DNA of 64,000 nucleotides, taken from the NCBI GenBank assembly GCA_041687095.1, contig JAWLCQ010000001.1, positions 25,664 through 89,663 on the forward strand. Direction: 5' to 3'. Every line of letters starts with the position of its first letter. Position 1 is the stretch's first letter. Origin of the DNA: Phycisphaerae bacterium (GTDB lineage Bacteria; Planctomycetota; Phycisphaerae; SM23-33). The notes under the pieces are model-generated. The model was given only the letters and a program-made list of their open reading frames with translations, had not been told where the DNA came from and did not search any database. The position numbers were made by a program, and so were the translations under genes. Below are positions 36,695-64,000 of the stretch, in pieces.

Positions 36695-36713
36695 GCGGGG
36701 CTCCTTTGGAAAA

Positions 36714-36859
36714 TGGTAACCGTTCACGGGGTGCCACCCTCAAGCGGCGCCGTTCAGCCGCTTGGGGGTGCTGCGGCGTGGGGAGCCCCACACCCCCAAG
36801 CCGCGAACAGCATGCGGCTTGAGGGTGGCACCCGGTTTGAACGGTCCCGTGAACGGTTA
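36714..36859. repeat. 146-nt nested triple palindrome (three concentric stems) between the rhamnosidase stop and the nucleoside hydrolase start
   Basis: Outer arms ggtaaccgttcacggg / cccgtgaacggttacc, middle arms gtgccaccctcaagc / gcttgagggtggcac, inner arms ccgcttgggggtg / cacccccaagccgcg. Coordinates are approximate to within 1-2 nt. Confidence 0.75.
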
Positions 36860-36970
36860 CGGAAAACGAAAGTCTTCGCAGCGCGATCCCGCCCGGAGGG
36901 GAAGGCCCCTCCCTCTGCCTCGACCCCCGAGCATTCTGCTGGCATCGAGGACGAGCGGGCCTGTCTGCTG

Positions 36971-39337: not shown

Positions 39338-39367
39338 GATTGCCGTCCTGGCCCGCCCGGGTCGGGT

Positions 39368-40372: not shown

Positions 40373-40578
40373 GCTTCGCCTTTCCCAGCCAGAACAACGC
40401 CGGGTCGTTCCGTGTGTCGCGGACGCACCCGCCGCCACAGTGGTCGCCCACGCACGACGGGAACACTCCCGCGACCCAGAGATAGCAGGAATCGGCCTGC
40501 TCGTACAGCCCCAGACTGGGCGGCCCACACCAGGCGCGGCGGGGTCGAACGTGGCGGGCGGTTACCAGGGGATCGGCC

Positions 40579-45155: not shown

Positions 45156-45827
45156 GTGAGGGAGCAGGAAATGGTCGCTCGTTTCGCTGCAATGGTTTGT
45201 CTCGTGGTGTGTGGTTCCGCGGTCCCGGTGCACGCCGCGATGGTTCTGGGCCTGGAGTGCGACACGTATTTCGCCAGGCCCGGGGACGTGCTGGAGCTGC
45301 GGATTCTGCTGGATGTGGATGACGCGGCGGCGGGGTGGCAGGCGCCGGCGGCGGGGCTGTTCTCGGCCGGGGCGGCGGTGAGGTTCGCCCCCGCCCTGGG
45401 GGCCGTGGCGGACGTGTCGGACATCCTTCTTCCGGGGGCGCTGTCGGAGAACGGAGCGGGCGCCCCCGCCCGCCGGGAGGTCGCCCCGGGATTCGCGGGG
45501 TTCTTCGGGGGGCTGCTGATGACCCTGGACCCGTTTACGCAGGGCTACGGCGAGCCGCTTCTGGCAACGGTGCGGCTGCAGGTGGCCCTGGGGGCGACGG
45601 GGAGCTTTCCGATCCAGTTGGACACGTATTTCCCGGCCCCGATGTCGAACCTCGTGACGTGCGACGCGCAGTCGTTGGACGACGAGGTGGAGTACCGGCC
45701 GTCGACGGTGGTCCTCATCCCCGAGCCGCTCGCCCTGTGCCTTGTGGGCGTGGGGTCCGTGGCGATGCTGTCCCGTCGGCGGGCGCGTCTGGGCCGGGGC
45801 CCGGGGCACGCCAAGGCTCGGGGCTGA
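45156..45827 (+). CDS. PEP-CTERM sorting-signal protein (putative exosortase substrate), secreted
   Basis: N-terminal signal peptide MVARFAAMVCLVVCGSAVPVHAAM; C-terminal VVLIPEPLALCLVGVGSVAMLSRRRAR is a PEP motif plus TM helix plus Arg cluster. GAGGGAG SD precedes the start. Confidence 0.75.
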   Translation: MREQEMVARFAAMVCLVVCGSAVPVHAAMVLGLECDTYFARPGDVLELRILLDVDDAAAGWQAPAAGLFSAGAAVRFAPALGAVADVSDILLPGALSENGAGAPARREVAPGFAGFFGGLLMTLDPFTQGYGEPLLATVRLQVALGATGSFPIQLDTYFPAPMSNLVTCDAQSLDDEVEYRPSTVVLIPEPLALCLVGVGSVAMLSRRRARLGRGPGHAKARG

Positions 45828-52000: not shown

Positions 52001-55000
52001 GCAACCGCTTCACGGGCGAAGGGGCCGCGGGCGTGGTGTTGGGCACATCGGCGATGGCGATGGTCTCGGGCAACAGCTACCGCGGGTACGTGGGGCAGTA
52101 CGGGCTGCGCACGGGGGGCCGGTTCAGCGCGTTCGTCGCCGACAACGAGATCGCCGGGACCGTCGCGTCCGTCTGGGCCGACGACGGCGGGTCGGTGTAC
52201 CTGCGCGGCAACACGATCAGCGGGAGCGTCGTGCTTCGCGGCGACCGCGACAACGTGGTCCGCGGGAACACCATTACCGGCGACGTGCGCCTCATCGCAC
52301 CGGCCGATCCGAACTGGGGCCAGATCGTCTGGCCGGGCGAGTGGGTGGAGGCCAACGCCCTGGCGCCCCTCCCCTACGACGAGGCGTTCTCCCAGGCGAT
52401 CGTGGGCAACGTGATCTCCGGGGCAGTCCGCGTCGAGTACGCGACAGCCACCCTCATCGAGGGCAACGTGTCCCTGGGCTCGGTGGTGGTGGCCGCGGGG
52501 AACAAGAACACGCAGATCCCGATCATCGTGCGGCTGAACGAGTCCATCGACGCCGGGGCGGGCGTCGCCGTCGAGGTGACGGGCCTGTCGTGGGCGGACA
52601 TCACCGACAACGCCCTGATCCGCGGGGCCACGGGCGTGCTCATCGACACCAGCGACCTGTGCACCGTCAGCGGGAACCTCATCGACGCGACGCAGTACGG
52701 CCTGCGGATCGTCAACGCCGGCAGCATGCTGGCGATGGAGAACCGCATCGACGCGGGCGTCGAGGGCGTCCGCATCGAGGGCAACTACTTCGTGCGGCTG
52801 GAGGGCAACGAGATCTCGGGCGGAGAGTCTTCGATCCGCGGGATCGGCAGTTGGGTGGTCCCGCGGGTGACGGGCAACCGCCTGACGGGCGGCGTGTGGT
52901 TCGAGGGCGACGGGCTGCTCGTCCCCCCCATGCTCCGCCGCCTGGGGCAGTTCCGCGAGAACGACGTCGACGGGACCGTGACGATCGACACCGGGCACCG
53001 CCTGGAAGTCCTCGGGAACCTCCTGCGGACCGGGCGACTCACCGTGACGACGGGGGGCAATGCGACGGTTTCGGACAACCTCGTGAACCAGGAGATGATT
53101 CTCACGATCGGCGGGTCCGCCGACGTGTCGTGGAACCTCGTGGACCTGGGCGACCTGCGCCTGACCGTCGCTTCGGGGCAGGCGTGGACCGTGTCCGACA
53201 ACACGCTCACCGGCGGATACGTCGGCGGGGGCGACCTCGTCGTCAGCGGCGGGACGCGGGCGCAGGCCCAGGGCAATACGGTTGTCAACGGCGACCTGCG
53301 AGTCACGATCACCGACGCCCCGACGTCTGCGACGCCCGCGAGCGTCCTCACCGACAACACGGTCTCCGGCGTCCTGTCGCTCGTCGGCGGGCCTGGCGCG
53401 GACATCCACGACAACCCGTCGCTCGGCGGTCTGCACGTGGCCATCGGCGGGGCGTGGGGGCAGGCGGATCGGGCCTGGCACACGCGGATCACCAACAACC
53501 CGGTCATCACCGGGGACTCCCACGAGGGGCGCGGGACGATCGACGTGACCGTGCCCGGGACGCTGCTGGTGAGCGGCAGCGTGGTGCAGCGCGGGCACAG
53601 CTACTTCACGGCGGCCGGGGCTGTGCGGATCGAGGGCAACGACTTCGTCGCGGGCGACCTGTTCGTCGCCATCCCCGGCGACAGCGGGACCTTCGGCGAG
53701 GCCCCCAGCGTTCTGGCGGGCAACTGGGTGCGGGCGGGGAGCGTGTGGTACAGCGGGGGGGGCGGGCTGGACCTCTACGACAACCCGATCCTCGACCGCA
53801 CGGTGGACATCGAGATCACCCAGCCGTGGACGGCCATGCCCGCGGGGCGGATGTACCACACCCGCGTCTTCACCACTCCGGGCGGGGCGCAGGCCATCGG
53901 CAACCTGCTCCTCGACATCCCCGGATCCGCCGAGGTGCGGGACACGCACTTCGACGGGTCGTGGGGCCTGCAGATCGGCGGGTCGAGCCTCGTGGGGCAC
54001 CTCGTCGAGAACGTCACGACGACATTCGGTGGGATCACGATCACGTCGGGCCCGGCGGCAACCCTGCGCGGGAACACCGTGTGGGGCGGGGTGACGGTGA
54101 ACGTGGCGGGCAACGAGTTGCCCGCGGGGACGGACTGGGCGACGGTCGTCGAGGACAACACCGTCAGCGACGGGATCTGGCTGAACCTCGACACGCGCGC
54201 GGAGGTCCGCCGCAACACCATCACCGAGAGCGGGCAGGCCTTCAGCGACGGCAGCCTGCGGATCGCGGGCGCGGCCGACAGCGGGCACGTGGTCACGGGC
54301 AACACGATCCACGGCGGCATCGAGATCACCAGCGGGCCGTGCGCGACGATCGAGGGCAACTCGCTGGCGTTCGGGAGCATCGTCCTGAACATCCCGGACG
54401 ACGAGGTCATCGTCGGGCAGGCGAACGTCACGCACATCCGCGGGAACGTGCTGGCGATGGGCGGGGTCTCGGCCCGCCTGGGCGCCGCCGCCGTCATCGA
54501 ACCGCTCGCCCTCAGCGGCGGGGGCGAACAGCCCAACGTGGTGAGCTTCCTCACGCTGACGGGCAGCTCGGCCGCCGCGCACCAGGTCCGCGGGAACCGC
54601 GTGACGGGCGACATCAGCGTCTCCGCCGGCCCGGCGGTCGTCATTGAGGACAACACCGGCCCGCTGGCGAGCGATCCGCTGGGGACGATCCGCGTCCGCC
54701 TCGGGGGGGCGGGGCAGGACGGGAGCATCGTGTCCGGCAACCGCGCGGGGACGATCGACCTTCAACTCGCCTCCGGCGGGACGATCGGCCACAACACCGC
54801 CGGCGCGGGCATGCTCCTGACGCTCGGCAACGCCGGTGGGGTGCTGCACAATACCGTGCTCGGCGGCGGGATGGCCCTCGCCGGCAGCGGCGGGGACGGG
54901 CATCTTGTGCAGGGCAACGTCGTCACGGGTGGGGTGCGAGTTTCCGCCTCGGCGGCCATCGCCCACGACATCACGGGCAACACGATTTCGGGCGCAGCGT

Positions 55001-58000
55001 ACGGCCTGGAAGTCACCGGGGGCGCCCCGGCCACGGTGCACGACAACGTCCGCATCGAGGGCGATTCCATCGGGATCCGCATCGTCGGCAACGCCCGCGT
55101 CACCGTCGAGGACAACCCCGCGATCCTCGGGACCGCCTGGGGCGTCTGGGCGGACGGGGACGGGGCCGTGCTGACGATCCGCGGCAACGACATTGTCGGG
55201 GGCGTCTACGTGGACAGCCTGCTGGGGGCCCTCATCGAGTCCAACGAGATCCACGACGGGACCACGGGCGTGTACCTCACGGGCGGCTCGACGGACGTGG
55301 TGCGCGGGAACGTCGTCCGCGGGTTCTCGACGGGCGTGCAGTTCCTGTCCGCGGCGGCCGAGGCGTACGGTAACGAGATTCACTCCAACGTCACGGGCGT
55401 CCGCACGCCGGCGACGCTGGGCGGTTCGGATTGGATCGCCCCCAACGCCATCCACCACAACACGGTGGGCGTCGAGGCCCTGGCGGGGGCGACGGTCCGC
55501 TTCAATCGCCTCGAGGCCAACGCCATCGGCATCGACGCCGCCGGCAGCGTCTCGGTGCATCACAACGTCCTGGCGGACAACAGCGCCCAGGGCGTGCTGG
55601 TCGACGCGGCCTCCAACGTGCAGGTGGTGAACAATACCATTGTGACCGCCGACGGGTTCGGCGACGGGGTGGTGGTGCAGGGCGGGTCCTCCGGGGCAGC
55701 GGTGCGGAACAACATCCTCTGGTCGCGCGGCGGGTACGGGCTGTACGTCGCGAACGACTCGCAGGTGGGCCTCGCCAGCGACTACAACAACCTGTACGCC
55801 TCGGGCAGCGGGCGCGTCGTGTGGTACCAGAGGGCGTACGACGACCTGCTGGACTGGCAGCTCGATTCGCTATACGACGCGCACTCGATCGGCTACACGC
55901 GGATCGACCCGCTGCGGGACGACCCGCGCTTCGTCGACCCCGCCGGCGGCGACTACCGCGTGCAGATGGGCTCGACGGGCATCGACCGCGGCGACCCGGC
56001 GAGCGATTTCACGCTCGAACCGTCCGTCAGCGGCGGGCGGATCAACCTTGGTGCGTTCGGTGGGACGAGCGAGGCCGCCCAGTCCTCGGCGGCGTATCTG
56101 CGCGTCGAGTACCCCGACTTCCACGCGGACTGGCAGGTGGACCGCGCGCGGAACATCCGCTGGTCGCAGTGGAACGTCGCGGGCGACGTGCGCGTCGAGG
56201 TCTACCGCACCGACGGGACGCCGGCCGCCGCGGTGGGGACGTTCGCGGCGGCGGCGGGCGAGTGCAGTTGGAGCCCCCGGATGGCTGGGCTTTCGGTGGA
56301 CCTCTCGCAGGGCTATCGCGTCCGCGTGACGTCCGTGAGCGACGGGAGCGTCTTCGCCGAGTCCCGCGAGCCGTTCTACGTCGTCCCCGTCGGGGGCACG
56401 TTCTACGTCAACGACGCCCTCACGGGCGACGACCAGTACACGACGGCCGCCGGGGACAACCGCAACCCGGGCCTGTCGCCCGACGCGCCCAAGGCGAGCG
56501 TCCTGGCGACCCTGCGCCTCTACGACCTCGGGGCGGGCGACGTCATCCGCATCGACGACGGGTACTACCCCCTGCCCACCAACCTGCTGCTGGGCGGGCC
56601 GGGGAGCGCGGGCGACGACGAGGGCGTACACCTCGACGGGCCGACGCTCGCGGGCAGCGAGGCCGTCCTCGACCGCGTCGTCACCCGCGCGGGGACGATC
56701 GCCGTGGACGTGAACCGCGCCGACGGGATCGAGCTGCGGAACCTCACGATCCGCAACGGTCAGCGCACGCTGTGGGTCCGCGAGGGGTCCGAGCGGTTCG
56801 TGGGTGAGCACCTGGACATCTCGGGCAGCGCGCTCGACGGGATCCGCATCGAGAGCGGCTGCGAGGACGTGTGGCTCCAGTCGCTGCGGGTGCATGGCAA
56901 CGGTGGGGCGGGCGTGTACGCCGCTCCTGCCCGGGTCACCCTCCTCGACAGCGAGATCGCCAACAACGCAGGAACGGGCGTTTCCTTGCCCGCGGCGGGT
57001 GCGGCGCGCATCGAGGGCAATACCGTCAGTGGGAACGCGGCAGGCATCGTCATCACGCACGCCGTCGCGGGCACGACGGCCATCGTTGGCTCGCTGGGGC
57101 ACGGCAACCTCGTGCGGAGCAATGCGGGCGACGGGATCACCGCGGTGGGCCGCGTGCTGGTCGAGGGCAACACGGTGTCGGGGCACACGGGGGCGGCGGG
57201 CATCCGCATCACCGAGGGCACGTCGGCGTATCCCGAGGCGAACGACAACGTCGTCAGCGGCAACGCGACGGGGATCGAGTCCAACACCCGCGCCTCGGTG
57301 CGCGGGAACCTGGTGTACGACAACGCCGTCCACGGCATCCGCGCGCGCGGGAGCGAGACCCTCGCGAACAACGTCGTTCACGACAGCGGCGTGGGCATCC
57401 AGCTCTGGTCGTACTACACCGGGACAATCGAGCACAACGTACTGTACGCCAACGCGACGGCCGCGGTGCGCGTCACGGGCCCCAGCACCGGGGCGATCTC
57501 GCTGCGCCACAACACCATCCATCAGACCGCCGGGGACGGCGTGCGGCTGGAAACCACCGCCGACGGTGTGACGCTCGATAACAACATCATCGTCGTCGAG
57601 GGCGGGTACGGGATCTACGTCTCCGACAACAGCCAGCCGGGCTTCTCCAGCGACGACAACCTGCTCCGCGCCACGGGCGGGGGGCGCGTGGGGTACTGGC
57701 AGGGCGAAGCGGGCAGCCTGGCGCAGTGGCGGCAGGCGTCGGGGCAGGACTCGCGCAGCCTGTCGGACGACCCGCGGTTCGTCAATGCGGCCGGCGGCGA
57801 CTACCACCTCCAGAGCCTTACCGGCAGCATGCACGGGGGGACGCTGGCGGTGGTGCTCGACGGGGCGACGGGCCTGCCCGTCGCGGCGGCGGGGACCCTG
57901 GAGTTCGACGGGGCCCAGTCGCCCGCCATCGACCGCGGGCGGGCGGGCAGCGCGTACGATCAGGAGCCGGCCCCCCACGGGGCGTTCGCGAACCTCGGGG

Positions 58001-61000
58001 CGTACGGGAACACTCCGCAGGCGTCGCGCAGCCCGGTGAGCTACGTCATGCTCCTGACCCCCGAGGGCGGGAGCGTGGTGATGACCGGGCGGTCTGCCAC
58101 CGTCCGCTGGCGGAGCGAGGGCTTCACCGGTGCGGTGGACATCGAACTGCTCCGCGGGGGGGCGTTCCTGCGGACCGTCGCCACCGGCGTCGCCAACAGC
58201 GGCGAGTACGCCTGGATCGCCCCCGCCGACCTGCCCGCGGGCAGCGACTACTCGCTCCGCATCACCCGCCCCGGCGGGGTGTCGGGCGCCAGTGCCACGT
58301 TCAGCGTCGAGGCCTTCCAGGGCGTGTACTACGTCAATGACGGTTCGGTGAACGGTGACGGGGCCGACTGGACCACGGCGGCGGGGGCGATGGGCAACAC
58401 CGGCCTGAGCCCCGACTCGCCCAAGGCGTCCATCGCGGCCGTCTTCGAGAGCTACGAGCTGGTCCCGGGCGACGTCATCTACGTCGACGCGGGCGTGTAC
58501 ACGCTGTCGAGCAACCTGCTGCTGACGGCCGCCCAGAGCGGGATCCGGATCGTGGGCTACCATGACGACGCCCACCCGGATCGCCAGGCGGTGTTGGACC
58601 GCGCCAACACGCTCGCCGGCAGCTACGCCATACAGCTCTCGGGCGCCTCGGGCGCCTCCCTGGAGCACCTGTCGTTCACCGGGGCGTACTCCGGCATCTA
58701 CGCCGCCGACGCCGTGGTCTCCGACGGGATCCGCATCGAGAACTGCCGCTTCTACGGCAATGAGACGTGGGGCGTGTGGCTGGGGGCGGGATCCGCCAAC
58801 GTCGTCGTCGAGGGAAGCCACTTCAGCGGCATGGCCGTTGCGGGCATCGACCAGAGGGGCGGCGTGTATCTCGGCGGCAGCGGGGCGCAGGTGCGCGGCA
58901 GCACCATGCACGACTTCGCCCTCGACTGGTACTACGGGATCGAGACCACCGGGGCGGACGCGACGGTCGATGGCAACACGATCACGAACGTCTTCAATGG
59001 CCTCCATGTGACGGGCGTCCGCTCGATGGTGAGCGGGAATACCGTGAGCGGGGGACGGACGGGCATGAACCTGTCGGGCTTCTCCAACGTCGCCGACTGG
59101 ATCGAAGCCTCGGGCAATATCGTGCACGGGCAGACGTGGCAGGGCATCTACGCCGGTAGCGGCGTGCGGGTCGTGGGCAACACCGTCTACAACGTGATCC
59201 ACTCGGAGCACACCGGGTCGCCCTCGGGGGCGATCCACGCCACGGGCGACATCCTCGATAACGTCGTGTACGCCAGCACCTGGGGCATCCGCTCGGGCGG
59301 GTACACGGGCATGACGGTCCGCGGGAACCTGGTGTACGGCTGCACCATCGGGATCTTCACCTGCTCGGGCACGCTGGAGGCCAACGAACTCCGCAACAAC
59401 GTGACCGGGATCAAGATCAGCGGGTACTACGAGGGCGTCGTCCGCAACAACCTCATCCGCGACAACACCCAGGCGGGCCTGGTGGTGTACGCCACCACGC
59501 CCTACGGGACGCGCCTGGTTGAGAACAACACCTTCCATCAGCCCACCGGCGACGCCATCCGCCTCCAGGAGACGGCCCTCAACGTCATCCTCCGCAACAA
59601 CATCATCCACGTCGGGGGCGGCTATGGCGTGTACGTGAGCAACGACAGCCAGAGCAGCCTGACCAGCGACTACAACCTGATCCACACCACCGGCAGCGGG
59701 AAGGCGGGCTACTGGCAGAGCGACCGCGCCACGCTCGCCGACTGGCGAAGCGCGACCGGAAAGGACGCCTGGAGCCTCTCGCAGGACCCGCTCTTCGTCG
59801 ACCCCGCGGGCGGGGACTTCCACCTCCAGAGCCCCCACGGCAGTTACCACGGCGGCCGGCTGGCCGTCGCGCTCGACTCCGCCACCGGCCTGCCCGTCTC
59901 CGTCGCGGGCCAGTGGGTCTCCGACGCCGCGCAGTCCCCCGCCATCGACCGCGGAGACGCGGGCGTCAGCTACGCCAACGAGCCCGCCCCCAACGGGGCG
60001 TTCGTCAACCTCGGAGCCTTCGGGGGCACCGCCCAGGCGTCCCGCAGCCCCGACGCGTACCTGACCGTCCTGTCCCCGTCTGCGGGGGAGACGTGGATGA
60101 CTAACCGCACGTCCGTCCTCCGTTGGCGCAGCCAGGACATGGATGGGGCGGTCGCCATCGAACTGCTTCGCGGGGGGACCGTGCAGAGCGTCATCGCCGC
60201 TTCCGCCCCCAACAGCGGCTCGTACGAGTGGCTGCTGCCCCGCGAACTAGCCGAGGCGGGCGACTACTCCATCCGCATCACCCGCTCGGGAGAGGTGGTG
60301 GGGCAGAGCGGGACGTTCAGCATCGTCCCGGCCGCGGCGGCTTACTACGTCAACGACGGTTCGGTCAACGCCGCGGGCGACTGGACGACGGCGGCCGGTA
60401 ACGATGCCGCCGACGGGCTCACGCGCTCGACTCCGCGGTCGTCGATCGCGGCGATTCTCGCGAGCTATCAGCTTTCCGCGGGCGACGTCATCTACGTGGA
60501 CGCGGGCGTCTACACGCTGTCGAGCAACCTGGTGCTGTCGGCGGCGCAGAGCGGGATCCGCATCGTCGGATACCACGACGAGGCCCACGAGGACCGCCGC
60601 GCCGAACTTCGCCGAGGCAACACCTCGAGTTCCAGCTACGCCATCCAACTCGCCGGGGCCGCCGACGTGAGCCTCGAACACCTGCACATCACGGGCGCCT
60701 ACCACGGGGTCTACGCGGCCAACTCGGCCGGGGCGACGGGGCTGACGATCCTCGACTGCACGATCTACGGCAACAGCAGCTACGGCGTGTGGGTGGGGAC
60801 GGGCAACCACGGCGCCGGCGTGGCCGACAGCGAACTGCACGGGCTGCTGTACAACGGCGTGCGGCAGGTGGACGGGGTGTACCTGGGAGGCAACTCGTCG
60901 CGGGTCATCGACAGCTACCTGCACGGCCACTCCAGCGGGAACAGCGACGCCATCGAACTCCCCGGGACCGACGCGGTGGTGAGCGGCAACGTGCTGGTGA

Positions 61001-64000
61001 ACAACCATAACGGGATCCGAACCAGCGGCGTGCGGGCCCGCGTGAGCGACAACCGCGTCGAGGGCGGGCAATCCGGGATGCTGATCTACGGACAGAACAA
61101 CGCCCGCTCGGAGTGGGCCGAGGTCGTCGGTAACACCGTCACCGGCCAGAACCATCAGGGCATCTACGCCGTCTACGCGCTGGTGCAGGGCAACACCGTC
61201 TATGCGGTGAACCACATCGAGGGCTCGGCGTCGGGGGCGATCGTCGGCAGCGGCTCCGAGATCGTCGGCAACACGGTGTACGACAGCAAGTGGGCCATCC
61301 GCAACGGCGGGCAGCAGGGTTTCACCCGCGACAACGTGGTGTACGGGAACGTGGTGGGGCTCTGGGTGGACCGCTCCCCGACGGAGGGCAACGTCGCCTA
61401 CTCCAACGGGATCGGCATCCAGGCGACGGGGCAGTCGCCCCGCGTCGCGAATAACCTCGTCTACGGCAATACCAGCGCGGGCGTGGTGCTGTACTACACC
61501 TACGGCACCCCGGCGGTGGAGAACAACACGGTTTACCAGACGGCGGGGGACGGTGTTCGCCTGGAGGGCAGCTCCCCGGCCCTCAACGTCGCGCTGCGGA
61601 ACAACATCGTCGTGATGGCGGGGGGGAACTACGCCCTGAACATCAGCAACGGCAGCCAGCAGGGCTTCACGAGCGACTACAACCTCTTTCACACCACCGG
61701 CGGGGCGAGGTTGGCGCTTCTGCTCGGGGAGCAGTACGCCGACGTCGCGACGTGGTTCTATCGGACCGGGTACGACCGCCACAGCCTCCAGGCCGATCCG
61801 CTCTTCTCCGACCCCGACGGGGCGGACGGGCGCCTGGGCTACGCGGGCGGGGTCAACGGCGGGGCGGATGACGACTTCTCGCTGTCGCCGGCGTCCCCGG
61901 GTGTCGGGGCGGGCGACCCGGGGACCTACGCCGCAGCGCAGCCGCCGGCGGGCCCGGGACGGATCACCCTCGGCCACCAGGGCAACACCGCCGGGGCCCA
62001 GACCGGCAGCGGTTCGGGCGTGCAGGTCGTCTCGCCCAACGGGTTGGACCGCGTGGCGGTGGGGGAGACGGTCTCCGTCACCTGGCAGTCGTGGGGCCTC
62101 GCCGCGGTTCGCCCCGTCGCGCAGGTCAACGCGGGCGGGACCGGCAGCGGCTACTGGAACACCGACGTCCTGCGCAGCGGCGGGACGACGGGCACGATCG
62201 CCGAGCCCGTCAACACCGCGGGCGTGACCGATCCCGCCCCCGCGTCCGTCTACGCCTCCTACTCCTCCGGGGCGTACTTCAACCCCATGAGCTACGCCAT
62301 GAGCGTCCCCGACGGGACGTACACCATCCGCCTGCACTTCGTGGAGCCCTCGCAGCACAGTTCCGTCGGGTCGCGGCGGTTCGACGTGCGGCTGCAGGGC
62401 GAGACGGTCCTGTCGAACTTTGACATCCACGCGACGGCGGGCGGGCGCTACATCGCCGTCGCCCGCGACTTCGTCGTCACCGCCTCGGGCGGGACGGGCA
62501 TCCAGATGAGCTTCGTCGAGCGAGCGGGCTACGCCATCCTCAGCGCCATCGAGATCCTCTGCGATCAGCCCCAGGGCCAGTCCCCCGTCTCGGCGGACTT
62601 GGACCTCTCCACCGACGGTGGGGCCACCTGGTCCCCGCTGGCCGCCGGCGTGCCCATGGACCGCCTGGGCCGCGGACAGTACGACTGGACCGTCACGCAC
62701 GCCCCCGCCGCTGACGTCCGCCTGCGCGTGACGGCCGGTGGGGTCTCGGACGCCTCCGACCGCTCCTTCCAGATCGTCTCGGCCGGCAACGACTACTACG
62801 TCAACGACGCAAACGTCGCGGCGGGCGACTGGACGACGGCTGTCGGCAACGATGCCAACTCGGGCAAGAGCCCTGACGCCCCGATGGCGAGCCTGGCGGG
62901 GCTGCTGGCGCTGTATCGCCCGGGCGCGGGCGACCGCGTCTTCGTCGATGCGGGCACGTACAACCTGGCCTCCTCGCTGGAGCTGGGGCCGGAGTTCACC
63001 GGCGTGCAGATCCTCGGGTACGCCGACGCGAACCACCCCGATCGCGAAACCGTCCTCGACCGCAACAACGTCTCCATGTCGGCGATCGTCTTCCGGGGGG
63101 CCGACGACGTTCTCCTGTCGGACCTCGCGATCACCGGGGGGTACGCGGGCGTGGCCCTGGCGGGGTCGGCCGACAGCGACCGCGTGACCCTTCGCGGGGG
63201 GCGGATGTTCGGGAACGACTACGCGGGCGTGAGCGTCGCCGCCGGCAACGACTTCGTCCGCATCGAGAACGTCGAGATCGACGGGCTCGCCCACGACGGC
63301 GTGCGGCAGAACGTCGGGATCTACAGCGTGGCCGACAACGCCACGATCATCGGCAACCGCATACACGGGCACACCGACGTCAAGTCGATCGACATCGCCG
63401 GCGGGTTCGCCGAGGTCGCCTTCAACGACATCTCGGGAAGCGCGTACGGCCTGTACCTGTACAGCGGATCGACGCAACGCAGCATGGTCCACGACAACGA
63501 GGTGCAGGCGGGCACGGGGTACGGAATGTACCTCATAGGCAACGTCCTGGCGCAGAACAACCGGATCCACAACATCTACGGGATGAACACCGGGTACGGC
63601 GTCTATGCGACGAGCGCCGTGGAACTGCTCGCCAACGAGGTCTATGACTCCGCCCGCGGGATCTACTCCAGCGGGCCGATCCGCAGCAACGTCGTGCATG
63701 GCTGCCAGTACTACGGGATCCACACGCAGGACCGCGACCAGATCGTCGAGGGCAACCGCGTCTACGACAACGCCGTGGGCATCCAGTACCACGGCGGGGG
63801 GCAGGTCGTGGGCAACTGGGTCTACTCGAACATGGTGGGCATCCAGTCCGGCTCCAGCGCCCGCGGGCGGATCGAGGGCAACGTCGTCTACGCCAACGAC
63901 GACGCGGCCATCGTCCTGAGCGGATCCAGCGTCTACGACATCGACGTGCTGTCCAACACCGTCTACCAGCACGTTGGCGATGCGATCTCGCTGGGAGGCG
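46006..64000 (+). CDS. Giant modular cell-surface protein, 3'-truncated by the window (at least 5998 codons in window): N-terminal non-repetitive region, PPC-like and EF-hand-like segments, then at least 5 tandem modules of Ig-like domain plus right-handed beta-helix (PbH1/NosD-like) repeats, with a malectin-like carbohydrate-binding insert
   Basis: Frame 1 (positions of form 3n+1) is open and protein-like from the ATG at 46006 (AAGGAGAG SD, in-frame TGA at 45955) to nt 64000. I checked this by translating about 15 separate stretches. It is absent from the ORF track, presumably because there is no in-window stop; all listed minus-strand ORFs here are antisense shadows. Motifs: DADGDGRLHWDEL (around 50900), PPC-like VQWYRFSTDRDNEVFDF...LAVFNADGE (around 51200), recurring YYVND..G..P.APKAS...GD.I.VD.G.Y.L module heads at about 51496, 56401, 58321, 60343 and 62791, beta-helix rungs (GN.V.GN..GI), malectin-like RRFDVRLQGETVLSNFDI...LSAIEIL (around 62330-62560). 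Confidence 0.8.
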   Translation, partial: MSADAVQRAKVRGSLTNGSGRIELLEQRILLSGTPLPDAARLGLIEGLTEFAQWTDRLGQTEAFTTGLPLSDGATLGTVTAAGDVVQTYLVDRVCQVLQSPGATLEDVVSALRDLGGSFVGDLGGRQVPLDVLVDPAAVVGAWVDSEISFSLPFQALLRPPSGVDLDDALGALGFTSGAEFALDALGSLTLDLTFGFDLSEGLGQAEQFFLRPVEMLLEADLSGADFDLPDLRMGFMDLGITHGSISLSGLADVSFVNPDADLLGRITLDELRNTAMDVLAAVTPGGTLQASLPLSGVLGAMGLGAPQISLNCLDVFQLPVEMGFNADFEALLPLGRIDPAMVLEAFDSLGASLTSLQRSDVFARIEGLGAQKLSDLLRLGENLRGIIDEVLMRPIDGAHGLYESAFDSAQSLLERLAAYPQSVLSSSADYLDGVLTYTLRFAASDALEGDFAYDYSDGPLSLSATGTVSGEVGTEVALTLGLDLSALSAEVIAAGAAPVGGQLDRSAEFSVQVGSDAPVRVTVPAEATADNAGLDDLVADINAALADAGLVAWTGAGAVLLVEARRVTVETADGERQRIALRTLGPWVAARLSVTPGAGAGQLGFTSAMEDHCRPEDFAFVQDAGASASMLVAAQMPEGHGRLGMLGGITLTNGAAWVGGTGYTPASPVPATVSFQIGQAGVRYGLGDLAETIGSDAAGLVEDSLTTDVQAGYQFTVTIEGQTAELLGLDPLAVRSIEVLYPDVVGGLAPVISTVGMDELLAAGQQITRGQIVEALHALVDFLQGLESLQGPLSWRLPGTGLSVNEMVDCAQDLARLIERINAEGLTALNDSLSGLAATVRDVLGLAEDQFLLRIEPASAAGEAALRMTLDLDYAFDRQAAVNLDLETLMGASLWPQMADYTSILGESGGGTVRVDGSAHVTIDLGVGLSSLDPFLYEGTAIGGALRVQGRDLAFDLTLGPLPGMAVAGGHLLVGDCPEGGPAAYGAGEIPAAAFRVGLTDTDPATVERYYLSSIADSDVTGTLDAQVDLVLPFEGDWVDPADADLWLLAGVDAQGALADVDGDFPTFVMPDTLNLEAMIDGLRTLLTRLRDALGTQAFNLSLPIVGTQLNTAYLDSLLARLGGWSPYDALHAATWATNNLAAMFGASAQIQAADTGDMDAADAAAEWIIQLSDTYAFGAADVDFDLGLPGLGLDIDAHADVSLDWVFNLGLGFSKNKGFYLITDDGGFATGLAFAGESPTLGVALTAGVTDLDASGRLGFLNLTAEAIPGAPIGASGQFAIDLSGLNGRVYYNRLASSIYDVDVAYALSADVNARLEIAYSANFPSILSDLVMHWSFDNDDATVDAPLSLALEDIRIDLGGYLGGVVSPVVERINEVFEPLQPILNVLNTTVPVVSYVLDRDVTILDLAIMAGGSGGYDVEFLSDVAAVVDLAGRLPALQSHYIHLGTYTFGSGLVSADSPLDLAVNGGAFEGNENALVDARNAGGGFGAFLDDLQEIGIEIPLLAEPLRVVELFLGRDVELVQYTTPRLALDIDFRQQTPIIFPWLVFTIGMDASISAQAAFGYDTRGLRQYADGGDTGDLLNGFYMRTGPQYPLIRFAGHAALGLGVSLGGVVAAGVEGGIGLDGHIYATDADGDGRLHWDELPAFEPGEILSLFDCDGSIYFDVRLWWETPIDDGTYTLAKVTLMDFGAGTGGAIEHEADIEFDQRAMGNSVDLGQAPTARVYHPELWDSRGVQWYRFSTDRDNEVFDFSAVRASAGNDMALAVFNADGERLAMSAGWGSSQATLNDVRLGERGVYYLAVMCNDPEWPLESVSVTPNTDALTGTVVYYVNDLDDSPDPYLMGNPYTSAPGDDANSGLDPAHPKASISAVVSSLTGNEGRVYILVDSGHYRVDDEAERIRLAQGNVWFVGTWHTNVTFAAGPLFDLNNAGDVHLYGFNLYGEGTATAVRTRGDGLWDAAAGHYAPVDSLVIEGNRFDGVGVGIDAGCFQSVVISGNRFTGEGAAGVVLGTSAMAMVSGNSYRGYVGQYGLRTGGRFSAFVADNEIAGTVASVWADDGGSVYLRGNTISGSVVLRGDRDNVVRGNTITGDVRLIAPADPNWGQIVWPGEWVEANALAPLPYDEAFSQAIVGNVISGAVRVEYATATLIEGNVSLGSVVVAAGNKNTQIPIIVRLNESIDAGAGVAVEVTGLSWADITDNALIRGATGVLIDTSDLCTVSGNLIDATQYGLRIVNAGSMLAMENRIDAGVEGVRIEGNYFVRLEGNEISGGESSIRGIGSWVVPRVTGNRLTGGVWFEGDGLLVPPMLRRLGQFRENDVDGTVTIDTGHRLEVLGNLLRTGRLTVTTGGNATVSDNLVNQEMILTIGGSADVSWNLVDLGDLRLTVASGQAWTVSDNTLTGGYVGGGDLVVSGGTRAQAQGNTVVNGDLRVTITDAPTSATPASVLTDNTVSGVLSLVGGPGADIHDNPSLGGLHVAIGGAWGQADRAWHTRITNNPVITGDSHEGRGTIDVTVPGTLLVSGSVVQRGHSYFTAAGAVRIEGNDFVAGDLFVAIPGDSGTFGEAPSVLAGNWVRAGSVWYSGGGGLDLYDNPILDRTVDIEITQPWTAMPAGRMYHTRVFTTPGGAQAIGNLLLDIPGSAEVRDTHFDGSWGLQIGGSSLVGHLVENVTTTFGGITITSGPAATLRGNTVWGGVTVNVAGNELPAGTDWATVVEDNTVSDGIWLNLDTRAEVRRNTITESGQAFSDGSLRIAGAADSGHVVTGNTIHGGIEITSGPCATIEGNSLAFGSIVLNIPDDEVIVGQANVTHIRGNVLAMGGVSARLGAAAVIEPLALSGGGEQPNVVSFLTLTGSSAAAHQVRGNRVTGDISVSAGPAVVIEDNTGPLASDPLGTIRVRLGGAGQDGSIVSGNRAGTIDLQLASGGTIGHNTAGAGMLLTLGNAGGVLHNTVLGGGMALAGSGGDGHLVQGNVVTGGVRVSASAAIAHDITGNTISGAAYGLEVTGGAPATVHDNVRIEGDSIGIRIVGNARVTVEDNPAILGTAWGVWADGDGAVLTIRGNDIVGGVYVDSLLGALIESNEIHDGTTGVYLTGGSTDVVRGNVVRGFSTGVQFLSAAAEAYGNEIHSNVTGVRTPATLGGSDWIAPNAIHHNTVGVEALAGATVRFNRLEANAIGIDAAGSVSVHHNVLADNSAQGVLVDAASNVQVVNNTIVTADGFGDGVVVQGGSSGAAVRNNILWSRGGYGLYVANDSQVGLASDYNNLYASGSGRVVWYQRAYDDLLDWQLDSLYDAHSIGYTRIDPLRDDPRFVDPAGGDYRVQMGSTGIDRGDPASDFTLEPSVSGGRINLGAFGGTSEAAQSSAAYLRVEYPDFHADWQVDRARNIRWSQWNVAGDVRVEVYRTDGTPAAAVGTFAAAAGECSWSPRMAGLSVDLSQGYRVRVTSVSDGSVFAESREPFYVVPVGGTFYVNDALTGDDQYTTAAGDNRNPGLSPDAPKASVLATLRLYDLGAGDVIRIDDGYYPLPTNLLLGGPGSAGDDEGVHLDGPTLAGSEAVLDRVVTRAGTIAVDVNRADGIELRNLTIRNGQRTLWVREGSERFVGEHLDISGSALDGIRIESGCEDVWLQSLRVHGNGGAGVYAAPARVTLLDSEIANNAGTGVSLPAAGAARIEGNTVSGNAAGIVITHAVAGTTAIVGSLGHGNLVRSNAGDGITAVGRVLVEGNTVSGHTGAAGIRITEGTSAYPEANDNVVSGNATGIESNTRASVRGNLVYDNAVHGIRARGSETLANNVVHDSGVGIQLWSYYTGTIEHNVLYANATAAVRVTGPSTGAISLRHNTIHQTAGDGVRLETTADGVTLDNNIIVVEGGYGIYVSDNSQPGFSSDDNLLRATGGGRVGYWQGEAGSLAQWRQASGQDSRSLSDDPRFVNAAGGDYHLQSLTGSMHGGTLAVVLDGATGLPVAAAGTLEFDGAQSPAIDRGRAGSAYDQEPAPHGAFANLGAYGNTPQASRSPVSYVMLLTPEGGSVVMTGRSATVRWRSEGFTGAVDIELLRGGAFLRTVATGVANSGEYAWIAPADLPAGSDYSLRITRPGGVSGASATFSVEAFQGVYYVNDGSVNGDGADWTTAAGAMGNTGLSPDSPKASIAAVFESYELVPGDVIYVDAGVYTLSSNLLLTAAQSGIRIVGYHDDAHPDRQAVLDRANTLAGSYAIQLSGASGASLEHLSFTGAYSGIYAADAVVSDGIRIENCRFYGNETWGVWLGAGSANVVVEGSHFSGMAVAGIDQRGGVYLGGSGAQVRGSTMHDFALDWYYGIETTGADATVDGNTITNVFNGLHVTGVRSMVSGNTVSGGRTGMNLSGFSNVADWIEASGNIVHGQTWQGIYAGSGVRVVGNTVYNVIHSEHTGSPSGAIHATGDILDNVVYASTWGIRSGGYTGMTVRGNLVYGCTIGIFTCSGTLEANELRNNVTGIKISGYYEGVVRNNLIRDNTQAGLVVYATTPYGTRLVENNTFHQPTGDAIRLQETALNVILRNNIIHVGGGYGVYVSNDSQSSLTSDYNLIHTTGSGKAGYWQSDRATLADWRSATGKDAWSLSQDPLFVDPAGGDFHLQSPHGSYHGGRLAVALDSATGLPVSVAGQWVSDAAQSPAIDRGDAGVSYANEPAPNGAFVNLGAFGGTAQASRSPDAYLTVLSPSAGETWMTNRTSVLRWRSQDMDGAVAIELLRGGTVQSVIAASAPNSGSYEWLLPRELAEAGDYSIRITRSGEVVGQSGTFSIVPAAAAYYVNDGSVNAAGDWTTAAGNDAADGLTRSTPRSSIAAILASYQLSAGDVIYVDAGVYTLSSNLVLSAAQSGIRIVGYHDEAHEDRRAELRRGNTSSSSYAIQLAGAADVSLEHLHITGAYHGVYAANSAGATGLTILDCTIYGNSSYGVWVGTGNHGAGVADSELHGLLYNGVRQVDGVYLGGNSSRVIDSYLHGHSSGNSDAIELPGTDAVVSGNVLVNNHNGIRTSGVRARVSDNRVEGGQSGMLIYGQNNARSEWAEVVGNTVTGQNHQGIYAVYALVQGNTVYAVNHIEGSASGAIVGSGSEIVGNTVYDSKWAIRNGGQQGFTRDNVVYGNVVGLWVDRSPTEGNVAYSNGIGIQATGQSPRVANNLVYGNTSAGVVLYYTYGTPAVENNTVYQTAGDGVRLEGSSPALNVALRNNIVVMAGGNYALNISNGSQQGFTSDYNLFHTTGGARLALLLGEQYADVATWFYRTGYDRHSLQADPLFSDPDGADGRLGYAGGVNGGADDDFSLSPASPGVGAGDPGTYAAAQPPAGPGRITLGHQGNTAGAQTGSGSGVQVVSPNGLDRVAVGETVSVTWQSWGLAAVRPVAQVNAGGTGSGYWNTDVLRSGGTTGTIAEPVNTAGVTDPAPASVYASYSSGAYFNPMSYAMSVPDGTYTIRLHFVEPSQHSSVGSRRFDVRLQGETVLSNFDIHATAGGRYIAVARDFVVTASGGTGIQMSFVERAGYAILSAIEILCDQPQGQSPVSADLDLSTDGGATWSPLAAGVPMDRLGRGQYDWTVTHAPAADVRLRVTAGGVSDASDRSFQIVSAGNDYYVNDANVAAGDWTTAVGNDANSGKSPDAPMASLAGLLALYRPGAGDRVFVDAGTYNLASSLELGPEFTGVQILGYADANHPDRETVLDRNNVSMSAIVFRGADDVLLSDLAITGGYAGVALAGSADSDRVTLRGGRMFGNDYAGVSVAAGNDFVRIENVEIDGLAHDGVRQNVGIYSVADNATIIGNRIHGHTDVKSIDIAGGFAEVAFNDISGSAYGLYLYSGSTQRSMVHDNEVQAGTGYGMYLIGNVLAQNNRIHNIYGMNTGYGVYATSAVELLANEVYDSARGIYSSGPIRSNVVHGCQYYGIHTQDRDQIVEGNRVYDNAVGIQYHGGGQVVGNWVYSNMVGIQSGSSARGRIEGNVVYANDDAAIVLSGSSVYDIDVLSNTVYQHVGDAISLGG

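What the first reader, a model, noticed from the sequence alone, without database searches (positions are those of the whole stretch)
61990..62570. Malectin-like lectin domain inserted between beta-helix modules of the giant protein
The translation GVQVVSPNGLDRVAVGETVSVTWQSW...YASYSSGAYFNPMSYAMSVPDGTYTIRLHFVEPSQHSSVGSRRFDVRLQGETVLSNFDIHATAGGRYIAVARDFVVTASGGTGIQMSFVERAGYAILSAIEIL matches the malectin / malectin-like carbohydrate-binding pattern (..Y.....F.E......G.R.FdV...G..vl..fDI.........f.v....G.l...F.......A.lsAIEi). This supports glycan binding as the function of the giant surface protein, in the same locus as a large glycoside-hydrolase cluster.
Basis: partly seen in the sequence, partly recalled or inferred. 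Interest (0 to 1): 0.55.

Follow-up and report, generated by a model that had tools for sequence, protein, structure and literature searches.

The report
Malectin domain budding from split Ig
A real malectin-type (sugar-binding-fold) domain sits inside a 7,027-residue bacterial fibre protein, looped out of a split immunoglobulin-like linker domain as ligand-binding domains are in known giant adhesins, but it lacks the sugar-contact residues of malectin, so glycan binding is likely rather than shown.

Summary
Window 61990-62570 (+) translates as quoted and matches Pfam Malectin well above threshold (55 bits, cut-off 23). AlphaFold2 gives a confident malectin-like beta-sandwich.

Three refinements:
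The malectin domain (nt about 62110-62565) is one insertion inside that Ig domain, which resumes at about 62584-62784.
- This Ig[malectin] cassette is conserved. 82 of the 149 best cluster representatives carry it, almost all in giant beta-helix proteins from Planctomycetota, Verrucomicrobiota and Proteobacteria.
- Only one of six alignable human malectin sugar-contact positions is retained (Lys138 as Arg). Free-standing bacterial malectin domains mostly keep them.

The gene product is P0138, 7,027 aa: LEPR-XLL N-terminus, beta-helix modules, one malectin, C-terminal dockerins.

The glycoside-hydrolase cluster is nearby but on the opposite strand, behind a SWIM/SNF2 gene pair. The two closest relatives also have sulfatase or GH95 neighbours; distant relatives do not.

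Best reading: a ligand-binding knob projected from a split domain, as in RTX adhesins, probably binding a glycan of unknown specificity. This is a new variant of known kinds, of moderate interest.

The parts
46006..64000 (+). Giant gene, cut off by the 3' end of the window. The full product is P0138, 7,027 aa.
   Evidence: The frame is open from 45958 and GC3 is 0.94. The first 5,998 aa of P0138 are 100% identical to the window translation from Met17.
46066..46116 (+). N-terminal LEPR-XLL-type motif (RIELLEQRILLSGTP).
   Evidence: NCBIfam NF012209 LEPR-XLL: 20.1 bits against a cut-off of 17. A LExRxx[LMFP][SAT] motif occurs in 20 of the 38 composite-bearing giants over 3,000 aa that start with Met.
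46006..51705 (+). N-terminal region of about 1,900 aa with no family match apart from the LEPR-XLL motif.
   Evidence: No Pfam family at E <= 0.1, and only the LEPR-XLL motif in NCBIfam.
51900..62016 (+). Right-handed beta-helix (NosD/CASH-type) modules separated by three uninterrupted Ig-like linkers at 56095-56388, 58042-58311 and 60058-60330.
   Evidence: Pfam Beta_helix, NosD, DUF5123 and Kre9_KNH. A custom Ig HMM scores the three linkers at 82-85 bits each.
62017..62100 (+). N-terminal part (strands A, A', B) of the split Ig-like domain.
   Evidence: MAFFT against the three intact Ig copies. An HMM built from 26 intact Ig linkers matches positions 2-43 to unit residues 2-43, i-E 2.6e-5. 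AF2 strands 2-6, 12-14 and 18-25 at pLDDT about 96.
62110..62565 (+). Malectin-type (CBM57-like) beta-sandwich domain, inserted in the Ig domain.
   Evidence: Pfam PF11721 at 55 bits. Bacterial malectin HMM at 176.6 bits, P0138 aa 5369-5520. AF2 pLDDT above 90. Foldseek to malectin and malectin-like structures.
62584..62784 (+). C-terminal part (strands C to G) of the split Ig-like domain. It contains an Asp-box-like motif, SxDxGxTW, at 62608-62631.
   Evidence: The intact-Ig HMM matches positions 32-96 to unit residues 193-255, i-E 2.2e-6. AF2 strands 192-254 at pLDDT 90-98. Motif conservation across 144 units: S198 98%, D200 83%, G202 96%, W205 87%. Weak Pfam BNR hit.
62785..64000 (+). Start of the next beta-helix module ('YYVND...' cap), cut by the window end.
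   Evidence: Pfam Beta_helix/NosD. The same 'YYVND' start follows each Ig linker.
45156..45827 (+). Small ORF (223 aa) just upstream of the giant gene, with a hydrophobic N-terminal segment that looks like a signal peptide and a PEP-CTERM-like tail. It is conserved next to the ortholog.
   Evidence: 38% identity, E 1e-51, to the gene immediately upstream of P0171. PEP-CTERM PF07589 scores 16.5 bits here (below the cut-off of 20.7) and 21.3 bits in the ortholog's neighbour. Hydrophobic N- and C-terminal segments.
27659..40528 (-). Neighbouring carbohydrate-active gene cluster: Melibiase-like, GH43-like, FAD oxidoreductase, an esterase on the + strand, nucleoside hydrolase, GH78 rhamnosidase and a BNR sialidase-like gene. 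It is not contiguous with the giant gene.
   Evidence: Pfam scans. SWIM (40579-41613) and SNF2 (41690-44461) genes lie between it and the giant gene.

Best explanation
Shown:
- Window nt about 62110-62565 encodes one malectin-fold beta-sandwich of about 150 aa.
- It is spliced into a loop of an Ig-like linker domain, after that domain's first three short strands. The chain leaves the Ig domain, builds the malectin domain, then returns to finish the Ig fold.
- The host is a 7,027-aa, very acidic protein without a predicted membrane segment. In order it has a LEPR-XLL N-terminus, an unassigned region of about 1,900 aa, repeated right-handed beta-helix modules joined by Ig-like linkers, and C-terminal Ig-like and dockerin repeats.
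- The Ig[malectin] cassette is an old, conserved unit of a large family of such giants.

Inferred:
- The cassette works like the 'split domain plus projected ligand-binding domain' units of fibrillar RTX adhesins. The split Ig domain holds the malectin knob out sideways from the fibre axis so that its far loops can reach a ligand.
- The ligand is most likely a carbohydrate. The grounds are the fold family, the CASH-type beta-helix modules, and the glycan-degrading genes near the three closest relatives.
- The pocket differs from that of ER malectin, so the ligand is not expected to be the Glc-alpha-1,3-Glc or maltose type.
- Whether the giant protein only adheres or also cleaves polysaccharide is not resolved.
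For: Malectin identity:
- Pfam 55 bits against 23.
- A profile hits PDB malectins at E about 2e-20.
- AF2 mean pLDDT 95 and pTM 0.85 for the whole 264-aa unit.
- Foldseek probability 1.00 to malectin and malectin-like structures.

Nesting:
- MAFFT places the domain as one 161-column insertion relative to three intact paralogous Ig linkers.
- An HMM of 26 intact Ig linkers hits all 18 tested units in two complementary pieces.

Conservation:
- 17 genome loci match the full 264 aa, in Planctomycetaceae, Pirellulales, Phycisphaerales, Verrucomicrobiota, Pelomonas/Roseateles and Ferruginivarius.
- 82 of 149 top cluster representatives carry a complete cassette, 127 cassettes in all, in proteins up to 7,981 aa.

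Full-length architecture.

Mechanistic precedent: Ig-like split domains project ligand-binding domains, including a fucose-binding CBM, from RTX adhesins (PMC12077191).

Glycan context:
- GH cluster 5.5 kb upstream.
- Ortholog P0171 (48% identity, colinear over 96% of the length) lies inside a cluster with 8 sulfatase genes and a pectate-lyase-like gene.
- L002 is followed by two GH95 genes.
Against: - Canonical malectin ligand residues are absent. At human E102, Y104, Y131, F132 and D201 the window has Y, S, S, Q/H and G/Y, and the whole cassette subfamily is variable there. Free-standing and tandem bacterial malectin domains keep E (47%), an aromatic at 104 (76%), an aromatic at 132 (77%) and D (44-47%).
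- The best structural matches are plant CrRLK1L malectin-like domains. These lack a canonical sugar site and bound no tested carbohydrate (PMC6038381).
- The model coordinates could not be inspected. That the malectin termini lie next to each other, and that the two Ig parts form one sandwich, rests on pTM and pLDDT, the DSSP strands and the HMM evidence.
- No RTX repeats or type I secretion signal were found in this protein. No classical signal peptide or membrane anchor was seen. Surface location is therefore inferred.
- The glycan-gene neighbourhood differs in each relative and is absent from distant family members. Such genes are common in these phyla (my own knowledge).
Confidence: 0.6

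Rival explanations
1. The malectin domain is a substrate-targeting CBM of a multi-catalytic enzyme. On this reading the beta-helix modules are polysaccharide lyases or hydrolases, the dockerins assemble or anchor the protein as in a cellulosome, and the malectin domain keeps the enzyme on its polysaccharide rather than mediating cell adhesion.
For: - Beta-helix/NosD/DUF5123 modules are of the CASH type, shared with pectate-lyase-like enzymes.
- Giant proteins of the Planctomycetota-Verrucomicrobiota-Chlamydiota (PVC) group with CASH domains have been read as extracellular catabolic proteins (PMC12057145).
- The protein has C-terminal Dockerin_1 repeats.
- The ortholog sits among sulfatase and pectate-lyase-like genes, and GH95 genes lie next to L002.
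Against: - No catalytic family (GH, PL or CE) scored on any beta-helix module. Only generic repeat models matched.
- A complete module has no PDB sequence relative at E <= 0.01.
- Distant relatives pair the cassette with cadherin, Big_9, PKD and RTX domains, which are typical of adhesins.
Confidence: 0.2
2. The malectin fold here binds something other than a glycan, such as a protein, a peptide or a mineral or abiotic surface. Alternatively it serves only as a structural spur, as plant CrRLK1L malectin-like domains bind RALF peptides rather than sugars.
For: - Five of the six alignable canonical sugar-contact positions are lost.
- The top structural matches are CrRLK1L ectodomains, for which no carbohydrate binding was detected (PMC6038381).
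- Split domains of RTX adhesins also project peptide-binding and other non-lectin domains (PMC12077191).
Against: - CBM families commonly change their binding residues while still binding sugars (general knowledge).
- Aromatic residues remain common around the former pocket. The E102-equivalent position is Tyr or Phe in 63% of cassettes, and W47 is aromatic in 97%.
- The three closest relatives have glycan-related gene neighbourhoods.
Confidence: 0.17
3. The match is a chance resemblance, or the frame is not really coding.
For: None found. The only weakness is that Pfam covers profile positions 20-131 of 163.
Against: - E-values of 1e-14 (Pfam) and 2e-20 (profile against PDB), plus a confident AF2 fold with Foldseek probability 1.00.
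- GC3 of 0.94 in this frame.
- An identical full-length protein exists in a public collection.
- More than 100 homologous cassettes were found.
Confidence: 0.01

Closest known systems
Animal ER malectin (Xenopus 2K46/2KR2, human 9IKP); Pfam PF11721; CAZy CBM57 (family assignment from my own knowledge and PMC7783096)
   Same: - The beta-sandwich fold matches (TM 0.62-0.67 normalised to malectin, rmsd 3.1-3.9 A).
- Core motifs are shared: Y84/Y79, the 'RLHFxE' strand and the final 'AIEI' strand.
- A subfamily profile hits malectin at E about 2e-20.
- The basic residue at human K138 is kept as Arg.
   Different: - Malectin is a single-domain, membrane-tethered ER lectin for Glc2-N-glycans. Here the domain is nested in an Ig domain of a 7,027-aa bacterial protein.
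- Sugar contacts E102, Y104, Y131, F132 and D201 are not retained.
- The loop that carries S80/Y82 cannot be aligned.
Bacterial malectin/CBM57-type domains, either appended to enzymes (C-terminal domains of Bacteroides and Tannerella GH2 beta-glucuronidases: 5UJ6, 6D50, 6ED1, 8DHL) or free-standing and tandem 'malectin domain-containing carbohydrate-binding proteins'
   Same: - Same Pfam family and fold.
- 32-50% identity to the free-standing and tandem forms.
   Different: - Those are terminal or tandem modules. This one is an internal, nested insertion.
- The free-standing and tandem group largely keeps the malectin pocket residues, and the cassette subfamily does not.
Plant CrRLK1L malectin-like ectodomains (FERONIA 6A5B/6A5E, ANXUR1/2)
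   Same: - They are the best sequence and structure matches in the PDB.
- They also lack the canonical malectin sugar site (PMC6038381).
   Different: - They are tandem malectin-like pairs on receptor kinases and bind RALF peptides with LLG co-receptors.
- This is a single domain. Pfam Malectin_like matched only the last third of its profile.
'Split domain plus projected ligand-binding domain' units of RTX adhesins (AhLap, FrhA, MpIBP; PMC12077191, PMC10865825; Graham et al. 2024, Proteins 92:933, as cited there)
   Same: - An Ig-like beta-sandwich is interrupted early in its fold by a complete ligand-binding domain and then finished.
- The host is a very long, repetitive, acidic fibre-like protein.
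- One such projected domain, the AhLap CBM, is a lectin.
- Some distant cassette-bearing relatives carry RTX (HemolysinCabind) and cadherin repeats.
   Different: - This protein has no RTX repeats and no recognisable type I secretion signal.
- Its stalk is built from beta-helix modules rather than tandem Ig extender domains.
- It has a LEPR-XLL N-terminus and dockerin C-terminus.
- The projected domain is malectin-type, which those papers do not describe (it was not among the domains mentioned).
Giant CASH/beta-helix and dockerin-type proteins of the PVC superphylum (PMC12057145; bioRxiv 10.1101/2023.11.21.568195)
   Same: - Size class above 5,000 aa, tandem CASH beta-helix domains, dockerin-like repeats and CBM-like modules.
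- Proposed extracellular carbohydrate-related roles.
   Different: - Those reports describe CBM35-like repeats, a PL6 domain and other domains.
- No malectin domain is mentioned in the giant-gene preprint (0 occurrences of the word), and the passages of the other paper that I read describe none. The one paper in the library that contains both 'malectin' and 'planctomycet*' is unrelated.

Membership tests
Malectin domain (Pfam PF11721 / CBM57) | Sequence match to the family profile above the curated threshold | tested here: met
   55 bits against a gathering score of 23, E 1.2e-14. The same family is precomputed on the homologs.
Malectin domain (Pfam PF11721 / CBM57) | Malectin-type beta-sandwich fold | tested here: met
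   AF2 pLDDT above 90 across the domain. Foldseek probability 1.00 to 9IKP, 2K46 and FER/ANX.
Malectin domain (Pfam PF11721 / CBM57) | Conserved ligand-contact residues of malectin (human S80, Y82, E102, Y104, Y131, F132, K138, D201) | tested here: not met
   The window has Y, S, S, Q/H, R and G/Y at E102, Y104, Y131, F132, K138 and D201, by both hmmalign and MAFFT. S80 and Y82 fall in an unalignable loop.
Malectin domain (Pfam PF11721 / CBM57) | Demonstrated carbohydrate binding | not testable with these tools
   Needs a recombinant domain and glycan array, ITC or affinity gels.
Malectin_like (PF12819, CrRLK1L-type tandem) | Two malectin-like domains in tandem that cover the whole profile | tested here: not met
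   Only profile positions 216-328 of 331 match, at 28.5 bits. There is a single malectin HMM hit in the whole 7,027-aa protein.
Split domain + projected ligand-binding domain (fibrillar adhesins) | A complete domain inserted within an Ig-like beta-sandwich that is finished afterwards | tested here: met
   One-block insertion against the intact paralogs. Complementary two-piece HMM hits in 18 of 18 units. AF2 pLDDT 95 and pTM 0.85 with strands on both sides of the insertion.
Split domain + projected ligand-binding domain (fibrillar adhesins) | N- and C-termini of the inserted domain adjacent; binding site distal to the junction | not testable with these tools
   Model coordinates are not exposed. 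This is inferred from the first strand (31-38) and last strand (177-183) of the sandwich.
RTX adhesin (type I secreted) | [quoted passage not shown] | tested here: not met
   No HemolysinCabind hit anywhere in the protein. The C-terminus carries dockerin repeats instead. The distant relatives P0185 and P0196 do have HemolysinCabind.
LEPR-XLL domain-containing giant proteins (NCBIfam NF012209) | N-terminal LEPRxLL-type motif that matches the model above its cut-off | tested here: met
   20.1 bits against a cut-off of 17, aa 21-37. The motif occurs in 20 of the 38 composite-bearing giants over 3,000 aa that start with Met.
Kre9_KNH-type Ig-like domain (PF10342) as the split host domain | Match to the Ig-like profile | tested here: inconclusive
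   Pfam detects only intact linkers of the protein. The split one is detected only with a custom HMM built from intact copies, with i-E of 2.6e-5 and 2.2e-6 for the two parts.
Right-handed parallel beta-helix / CASH modules | Beta_helix, NosD or PbH1 repeat matches flanking the cassette | tested here: met
   PF13229 at 202-209 bits and PF05048 at 161-167 bits. TIGR03804 matches too. No catalytic family was detected.

The most novel reading that the evidence does not exclude
The Ig[malectin] cassette may be a previously undescribed ligand-binding unit that is widespread across phyla, defines a family of LEPR-XLL/beta-helix giant proteins, and has a remodelled binding pocket unlike malectin's. 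In the planctomycete-type clade the giant protein would then be held at the cell surface through its dockerins, possibly with the conserved PEP-CTERM protein encoded just upstream. There it would act as a cellulosome-like capture or degradation fibre for sulfated or fucosylated algal polysaccharides. That would extend the 'split-domain' adhesin principle beyond RTX adhesins and give CBM57 a new specificity.
Probability: 0.2. Interest if true: 0.6.

Novelty: new variant of a known kind. Interest (0 to 1): 0.35.

Why it matters
- Giant proteins of Planctomycetota, Verrucomicrobiota and some Proteobacteria are mostly annotated only as 'right-handed parallel beta-helix repeat-containing protein'.
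- This work picks out a conserved module of about 264 aa that can be expressed on its own, and that by analogy with RTX adhesins is the likely ligand-binding part. It is a concrete starting point for finding what these fibres bind.
- The cassette subfamily has lost the malectin pocket residues that free-standing bacterial malectin domains keep. Labelling it 'malectin, therefore glycan-binding' should be treated as a hypothesis.
- If the ligand is a glycan, the specificity would be new for CBM57-type domains.
- None of this is surprising in kind. Lectin-fold domains in giant surface proteins and split-domain insertions are both known.

Tried and rejected
- Single-protein scans of genome contigs and metagenome contigs with the 670-aa C-terminal stretch found nothing. 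An alignment-based scan was needed.
- Exact look-ups of window proteins and of P0138 in the contig index found nothing. The source contig is known only as an unnamed NCBI contig of 123,013 bp. The window's own taxon and the genes downstream of the giant gene therefore remain unknown.
- The first AF2 run, whose alignment was deep only over the malectin part, left the Ig halves at pLDDT 50-60.
- The third word-indexed homolog search returned only 7 proteins. The second AF2 run used cassette sequences from the exhaustive HMMER search and succeeded.
- My first strict count of nested cassettes, from weak Ig half-hits, undercounted. A cassette HMM replaced it.
- The idea that the upstream PEP-CTERM protein is a cohesin got no sequence support. 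No Cohesin hit appeared even at E <= 10.
- I looked for a catalytic signature in a complete beta-helix module. There was no PDB sequence relative and only generic repeat models matched.
- Subfamily-specific conserved positions are mostly core or turn residues and did not reveal an alternative pocket.
- Checking neighbours of distant relatives for CAZymes gave DUF7133/cytochrome c, an M42 peptidase and DUF1552, so there is no family-wide association.

Full report
**1. The observation**

It lies in a single open frame that starts at 45958 and runs off the 3' end of the window. GC3 in this frame is 0.94, in a window of 70% GC.

Pfam Malectin (PF11721) matches at E = 1.2e-14, 55 bits against a gathering score of 23. 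Malectin_like (PF12819) passes its threshold too, but only over the last third of that tandem-domain profile. NCBIfam gives only a local hit to the matching region of a beta-glucuronidase/arabinofuranosidase model.

A direct PDB sequence search finds FERONIA malectin-like domains (E 6e-12) and GH2 'sugar binding' C-terminal domains. A profile built from 14 bacterial relatives finds Xenopus and human malectin at E about 2e-20.

AlphaFold2 models the domain at pLDDT above 90 in two independent runs. Foldseek against the PDB returns, all at probability 1.00:
- CrRLK1L malectin-like ectodomains;
- the C-terminal domains of Bacteroides and Tannerella beta-glucuronidases;
- human malectin 9IKP (TM 0.67 normalised to the target) and Xenopus malectin 2K46 (0.62).

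**2. What the domain sits in**

The exhaustive HMMER search returned P0138 (7,027 aa). Its first 5,998 residues are identical to the window translation from Met17. It is therefore the full-length product, and the window lacks its last 1,029 residues.

Architecture, from N- to C-terminus:
- An N-terminal LEPR-XLL-type motif (NCBIfam NF012209, 20.1 bits against a cut-off of 17).
- About 1,900 aa with no other family match.
- A long run of right-handed beta-helix (Beta_helix/NosD/DUF5123) modules, each starting 'YYVND...', joined by Ig-like Kre9_KNH-type linkers.
- One malectin domain, aa 5369-5520.
- One more beta-helix module, a weak NIDO-like region, a Big_5 Ig-like domain and two Dockerin_1 repeats.

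The protein is very acidic: 795 Asp+Glu against 358 Arg+Lys, with only 16 Lys. It has no membrane-like hydrophobic segment. NCBI names a relative simply 'right-handed parallel beta-helix repeat-containing protein'.

**3. The main refinement: the malectin domain is nested in a split Ig-like domain**

The peptide after the lectin, 'VSADLDLSTDGGATW...RLRVTAGGVSDASDRSFQIV', aligns with the rest of those linkers. MAFFT places the malectin as a single 161-column insertion.

As a quantitative test I built an HMM from 26 intact Ig linkers of this protein and its relatives, with no split copy included. It hits each of 18 cassette sequences in two complementary pieces. In the window, HMM positions 2-43 match unit residues 2-43 (i-E 2.6e-5), and positions 32-96 match residues 193-255 (i-E 2.2e-6).

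The first AF2 run had a deep alignment only over the malectin part and left the Ig halves at pLDDT 50-60. A second run used 32 full cassettes from the HMMER search plus the three intact window Ig copies. It gave mean pLDDT 95.0 and pTM 0.85 for all 264 residues. Strands 2-6, 12-14 and 18-25 precede the malectin domain, and five or six strands (192-254) follow it.

I could not open the coordinates. That the two parts form one sandwich therefore rests on the HMM evidence plus the high pTM. No PDB entry superposes on the whole unit; the best TM normalised to the query is about 0.52.

**4. The cassette is conserved and widespread**

An alignment-based scan of one genome per species found 17 loci that match all 264 residues:
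- an uncultured Planctomycetaceae bacterium (57% identity);
- Pirellulales, Phycisphaerales and Verrucomicrobiota;
- Pelomonas lactea, P. cellulosilytica, Roseateles and other Burkholderiales;
- Ferruginivarius sediminum, and others.

In almost all of them the match lies in an open frame of thousands of codons.

In the library of 1.84 billion representatives, 8,846 proteins match at E <= 0.001. Of the best 149, 82 carry at least one complete cassette: 127 cassettes, one or two per protein, median protein length 3,382 aa, maximum 7,981 aa. An error-prone metagenome contig (L001) holds a homolog with two cassettes.

Both Ig halves and the malectin core are strongly conserved across 144 cassettes. 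The split Ig carries an Asp-box-like SxDxGxTW motif that the intact linkers lack. Relatives from Proteobacteria combine the cassette with Big_9, cadherin, PKD, He_PIG, dockerin and, in some, RTX repeats.

**5. Does it bind sugar?**

The fold says 'CBM-like'. The pocket does not say 'malectin'.

Published contact residues are Y67, E87, Y89, Y116, F117 and D186 in Xenopus, and S80, E102, Y104, Y131, K138 and D201 in human (PMC13335976). I verified the numbering against PDB chains.

Two alignment methods agree on what the window has at human E102, Y104, Y131, F132, K138 and D201: Y, S, S, Q/H, R and G/Y. The S80/Y82 loop cannot be aligned.

Across the 145 cassette sequences aligned, these positions are variable or different; E102 is Tyr or Phe in 63%. 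In contrast, 152 free-standing or tandem bacterial malectin domains keep Glu (47%), an aromatic at 104 (76%), an aromatic at 132 (77%), Arg (96%) and Asp (44-47%).

The best structural matches, the plant CrRLK1L domains, are a documented case of a malectin-like fold with no canonical site and no detectable sugar binding (PMC6038381). Glycan binding is therefore a reasonable inference, not a demonstrated property. If it is true, the specificity should differ from malectin's di-glucose.

**6. Genomic context**

The 'glycoside-hydrolase cluster' exists. Melibiase-like, GH43-like, GH78 rhamnosidase, BNR sialidase-like, glucuronyl-esterase-like, FAD oxidoreductase and nucleoside hydrolase genes lie at 27.6-40.5 kb. 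They are almost all on the minus strand. A SWIM gene, an SNF2 helicase gene and about 1.5 kb separate them from the giant gene, so co-transcription is excluded.

Context in relatives:
- P0171 is colinear with P0138 over 96% of its length at 48% identity. It sits on the same strand within eight sulfatase genes, a pectate-lyase-like gene and an esterase.
- The nearest genome locus, L002 (Planctomycetaceae), has two GH95 genes immediately downstream.
- More distant cassette-bearing giants have unrelated neighbours.

The association is thus seen in three of three close relatives, but with different genes each time and in phyla rich in such genes. I count it as weak to moderate support.

**7. How it most likely works**

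The closest described mechanism is the 'split domain' of RTX adhesins. [quoted passage not shown] In the Aeromonas hydrophila adhesin AhLap, one such projected domain is a CBM that binds fucosylated glycans (PMC12077191).

The window's unit has the same topology. Its context differs: a beta-helix-module stalk, a LEPR-XLL N-terminus, a dockerin C-terminus and no RTX repeats.

I therefore read it as a laterally projected ligand-binding knob, most likely a lectin of unknown specificity (confidence about 0.6). The rivals:
- It is a substrate-targeting CBM for catalytically active beta-helix modules (about 0.2). No catalytic signature was found.
- It binds a non-glycan ligand (about 0.17).

**8. 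Novelty and verdict**

Malectin/CBM57 domains, split-domain insertions and giant CASH/dockerin proteins of the Planctomycetota-Verrucomicrobiota-Chlamydiota (PVC) group are each known. The one paper in the library that contains both 'malectin' and 'planctomycet*' is unrelated. I found no description of a malectin domain projected from a split Ig domain, or of this cassette as a conserved unit with a remodelled pocket.

- It is a new variant of known kinds, useful for annotation and as an experimental handle, but not surprising in kind.
- Interest is 0.35.

Noticed in passing
window 45156-45827 (+); L080 9353-9967: A small ORF (223 aa) with a signal-peptide-like N-terminus and a PEP-CTERM-like tail (..IPEPLALCLVGVGSVAMLSRRR) lies just upstream of the giant gene. 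A homolog (38% identity, E 1e-51) lies immediately upstream of the orthologous giant gene in L080. It could be a cell-surface partner or anchor for the dockerin-bearing giant, but no cohesin signature was found.
   Followed up: partly
window 46066-46116 (giant protein aa 21-37): The giant protein starts with a LEPR-XLL-type motif (RIELLEQRILLSG; NCBIfam NF012209, 20.1 bits against 17) rather than a classical signal peptide. The same motif occurs near the N-terminus of 20 of the 38 composite-bearing giants over 3,000 aa that start with Met. Its role is unknown to me.
   Followed up: partly
window 62608-62631: An Asp-box-like motif, S-x-D-x-G-x-T-W ('STDGGATW'), follows closely after the malectin insertion, in the Ig C-terminal part. 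It is conserved at 83-98% across 144 cassettes and absent from the three intact Ig linkers of the same protein. The split Ig is therefore a diverged paralog, not just an interrupted copy.
   Followed up: partly
beyond the window's 3' end (P0138 aa 5999-7027): The missing C-terminal 1,029 aa contain the rest of a beta-helix module, a weak NIDO-like region, a Big_5 Ig-like domain, two Dockerin_1 repeats and a Pro/Ala-rich tail. There is no second malectin domain, although many relatives have two cassettes.
   Followed up: partly
window 46006-51705: About 1,900 N-terminal residues of the giant protein match no Pfam family and, apart from the LEPR-XLL motif, no NCBIfam family. The whole protein is extremely acidic and almost free of lysine (16 Lys in 7,027 aa).
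   Followed up: no
window 40579-44461 (-): A SWIM zinc-finger protein and an SNF2-family helicase with DUF3670 form a gene pair between the glycoside-hydrolase cluster and the giant gene.
   Followed up: no
window 14768-19739 (-) and 22805-27586 (+): A MoxR AAA ATPase, DUF58 and TgpA transglutaminase gene set lies here, with a 1,593-aa VWA/YfbK-type protein nearby.
   Followed up: no
window 8550-14518: A GGDEF diguanylate cyclase gene (-) lies next to a 1,498-aa hybrid histidine kinase (+) with about seven PAS domains and a receiver domain.
   Followed up: no
window about 4090-8550: Long overlapping ORFs occur on both strands with no clear GC3 winner. A thymidylate-synthase match covers only the last part of a 902-aa ORF (5837-8545 +), so gene calls here are uncertain.
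   Followed up: no
L001 about 7279-8400 and 9900-10700: A metagenome contig (ERZ25039503) carries a homologous giant gene broken into many short ORFs by apparent frameshifts. It contains two Ig[malectin] cassettes in successive modules.
   Followed up: partly
L002 13612-19005 (-): Two GH95-family genes lie directly downstream of the giant gene of the closest genome relative, an uncultured Planctomycetaceae bacterium. The first appears split into two overlapping ORFs (13612-15024 and 14754-16187), which suggests a frameshift or assembly error.
   Followed up: partly
L081 39512-43121: In a JGI metagenome contig, a second, even larger gene (called product 9,964 aa) starts about 6 kb downstream of the cassette-bearing 7,706-aa giant P0185.
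   Followed up: no
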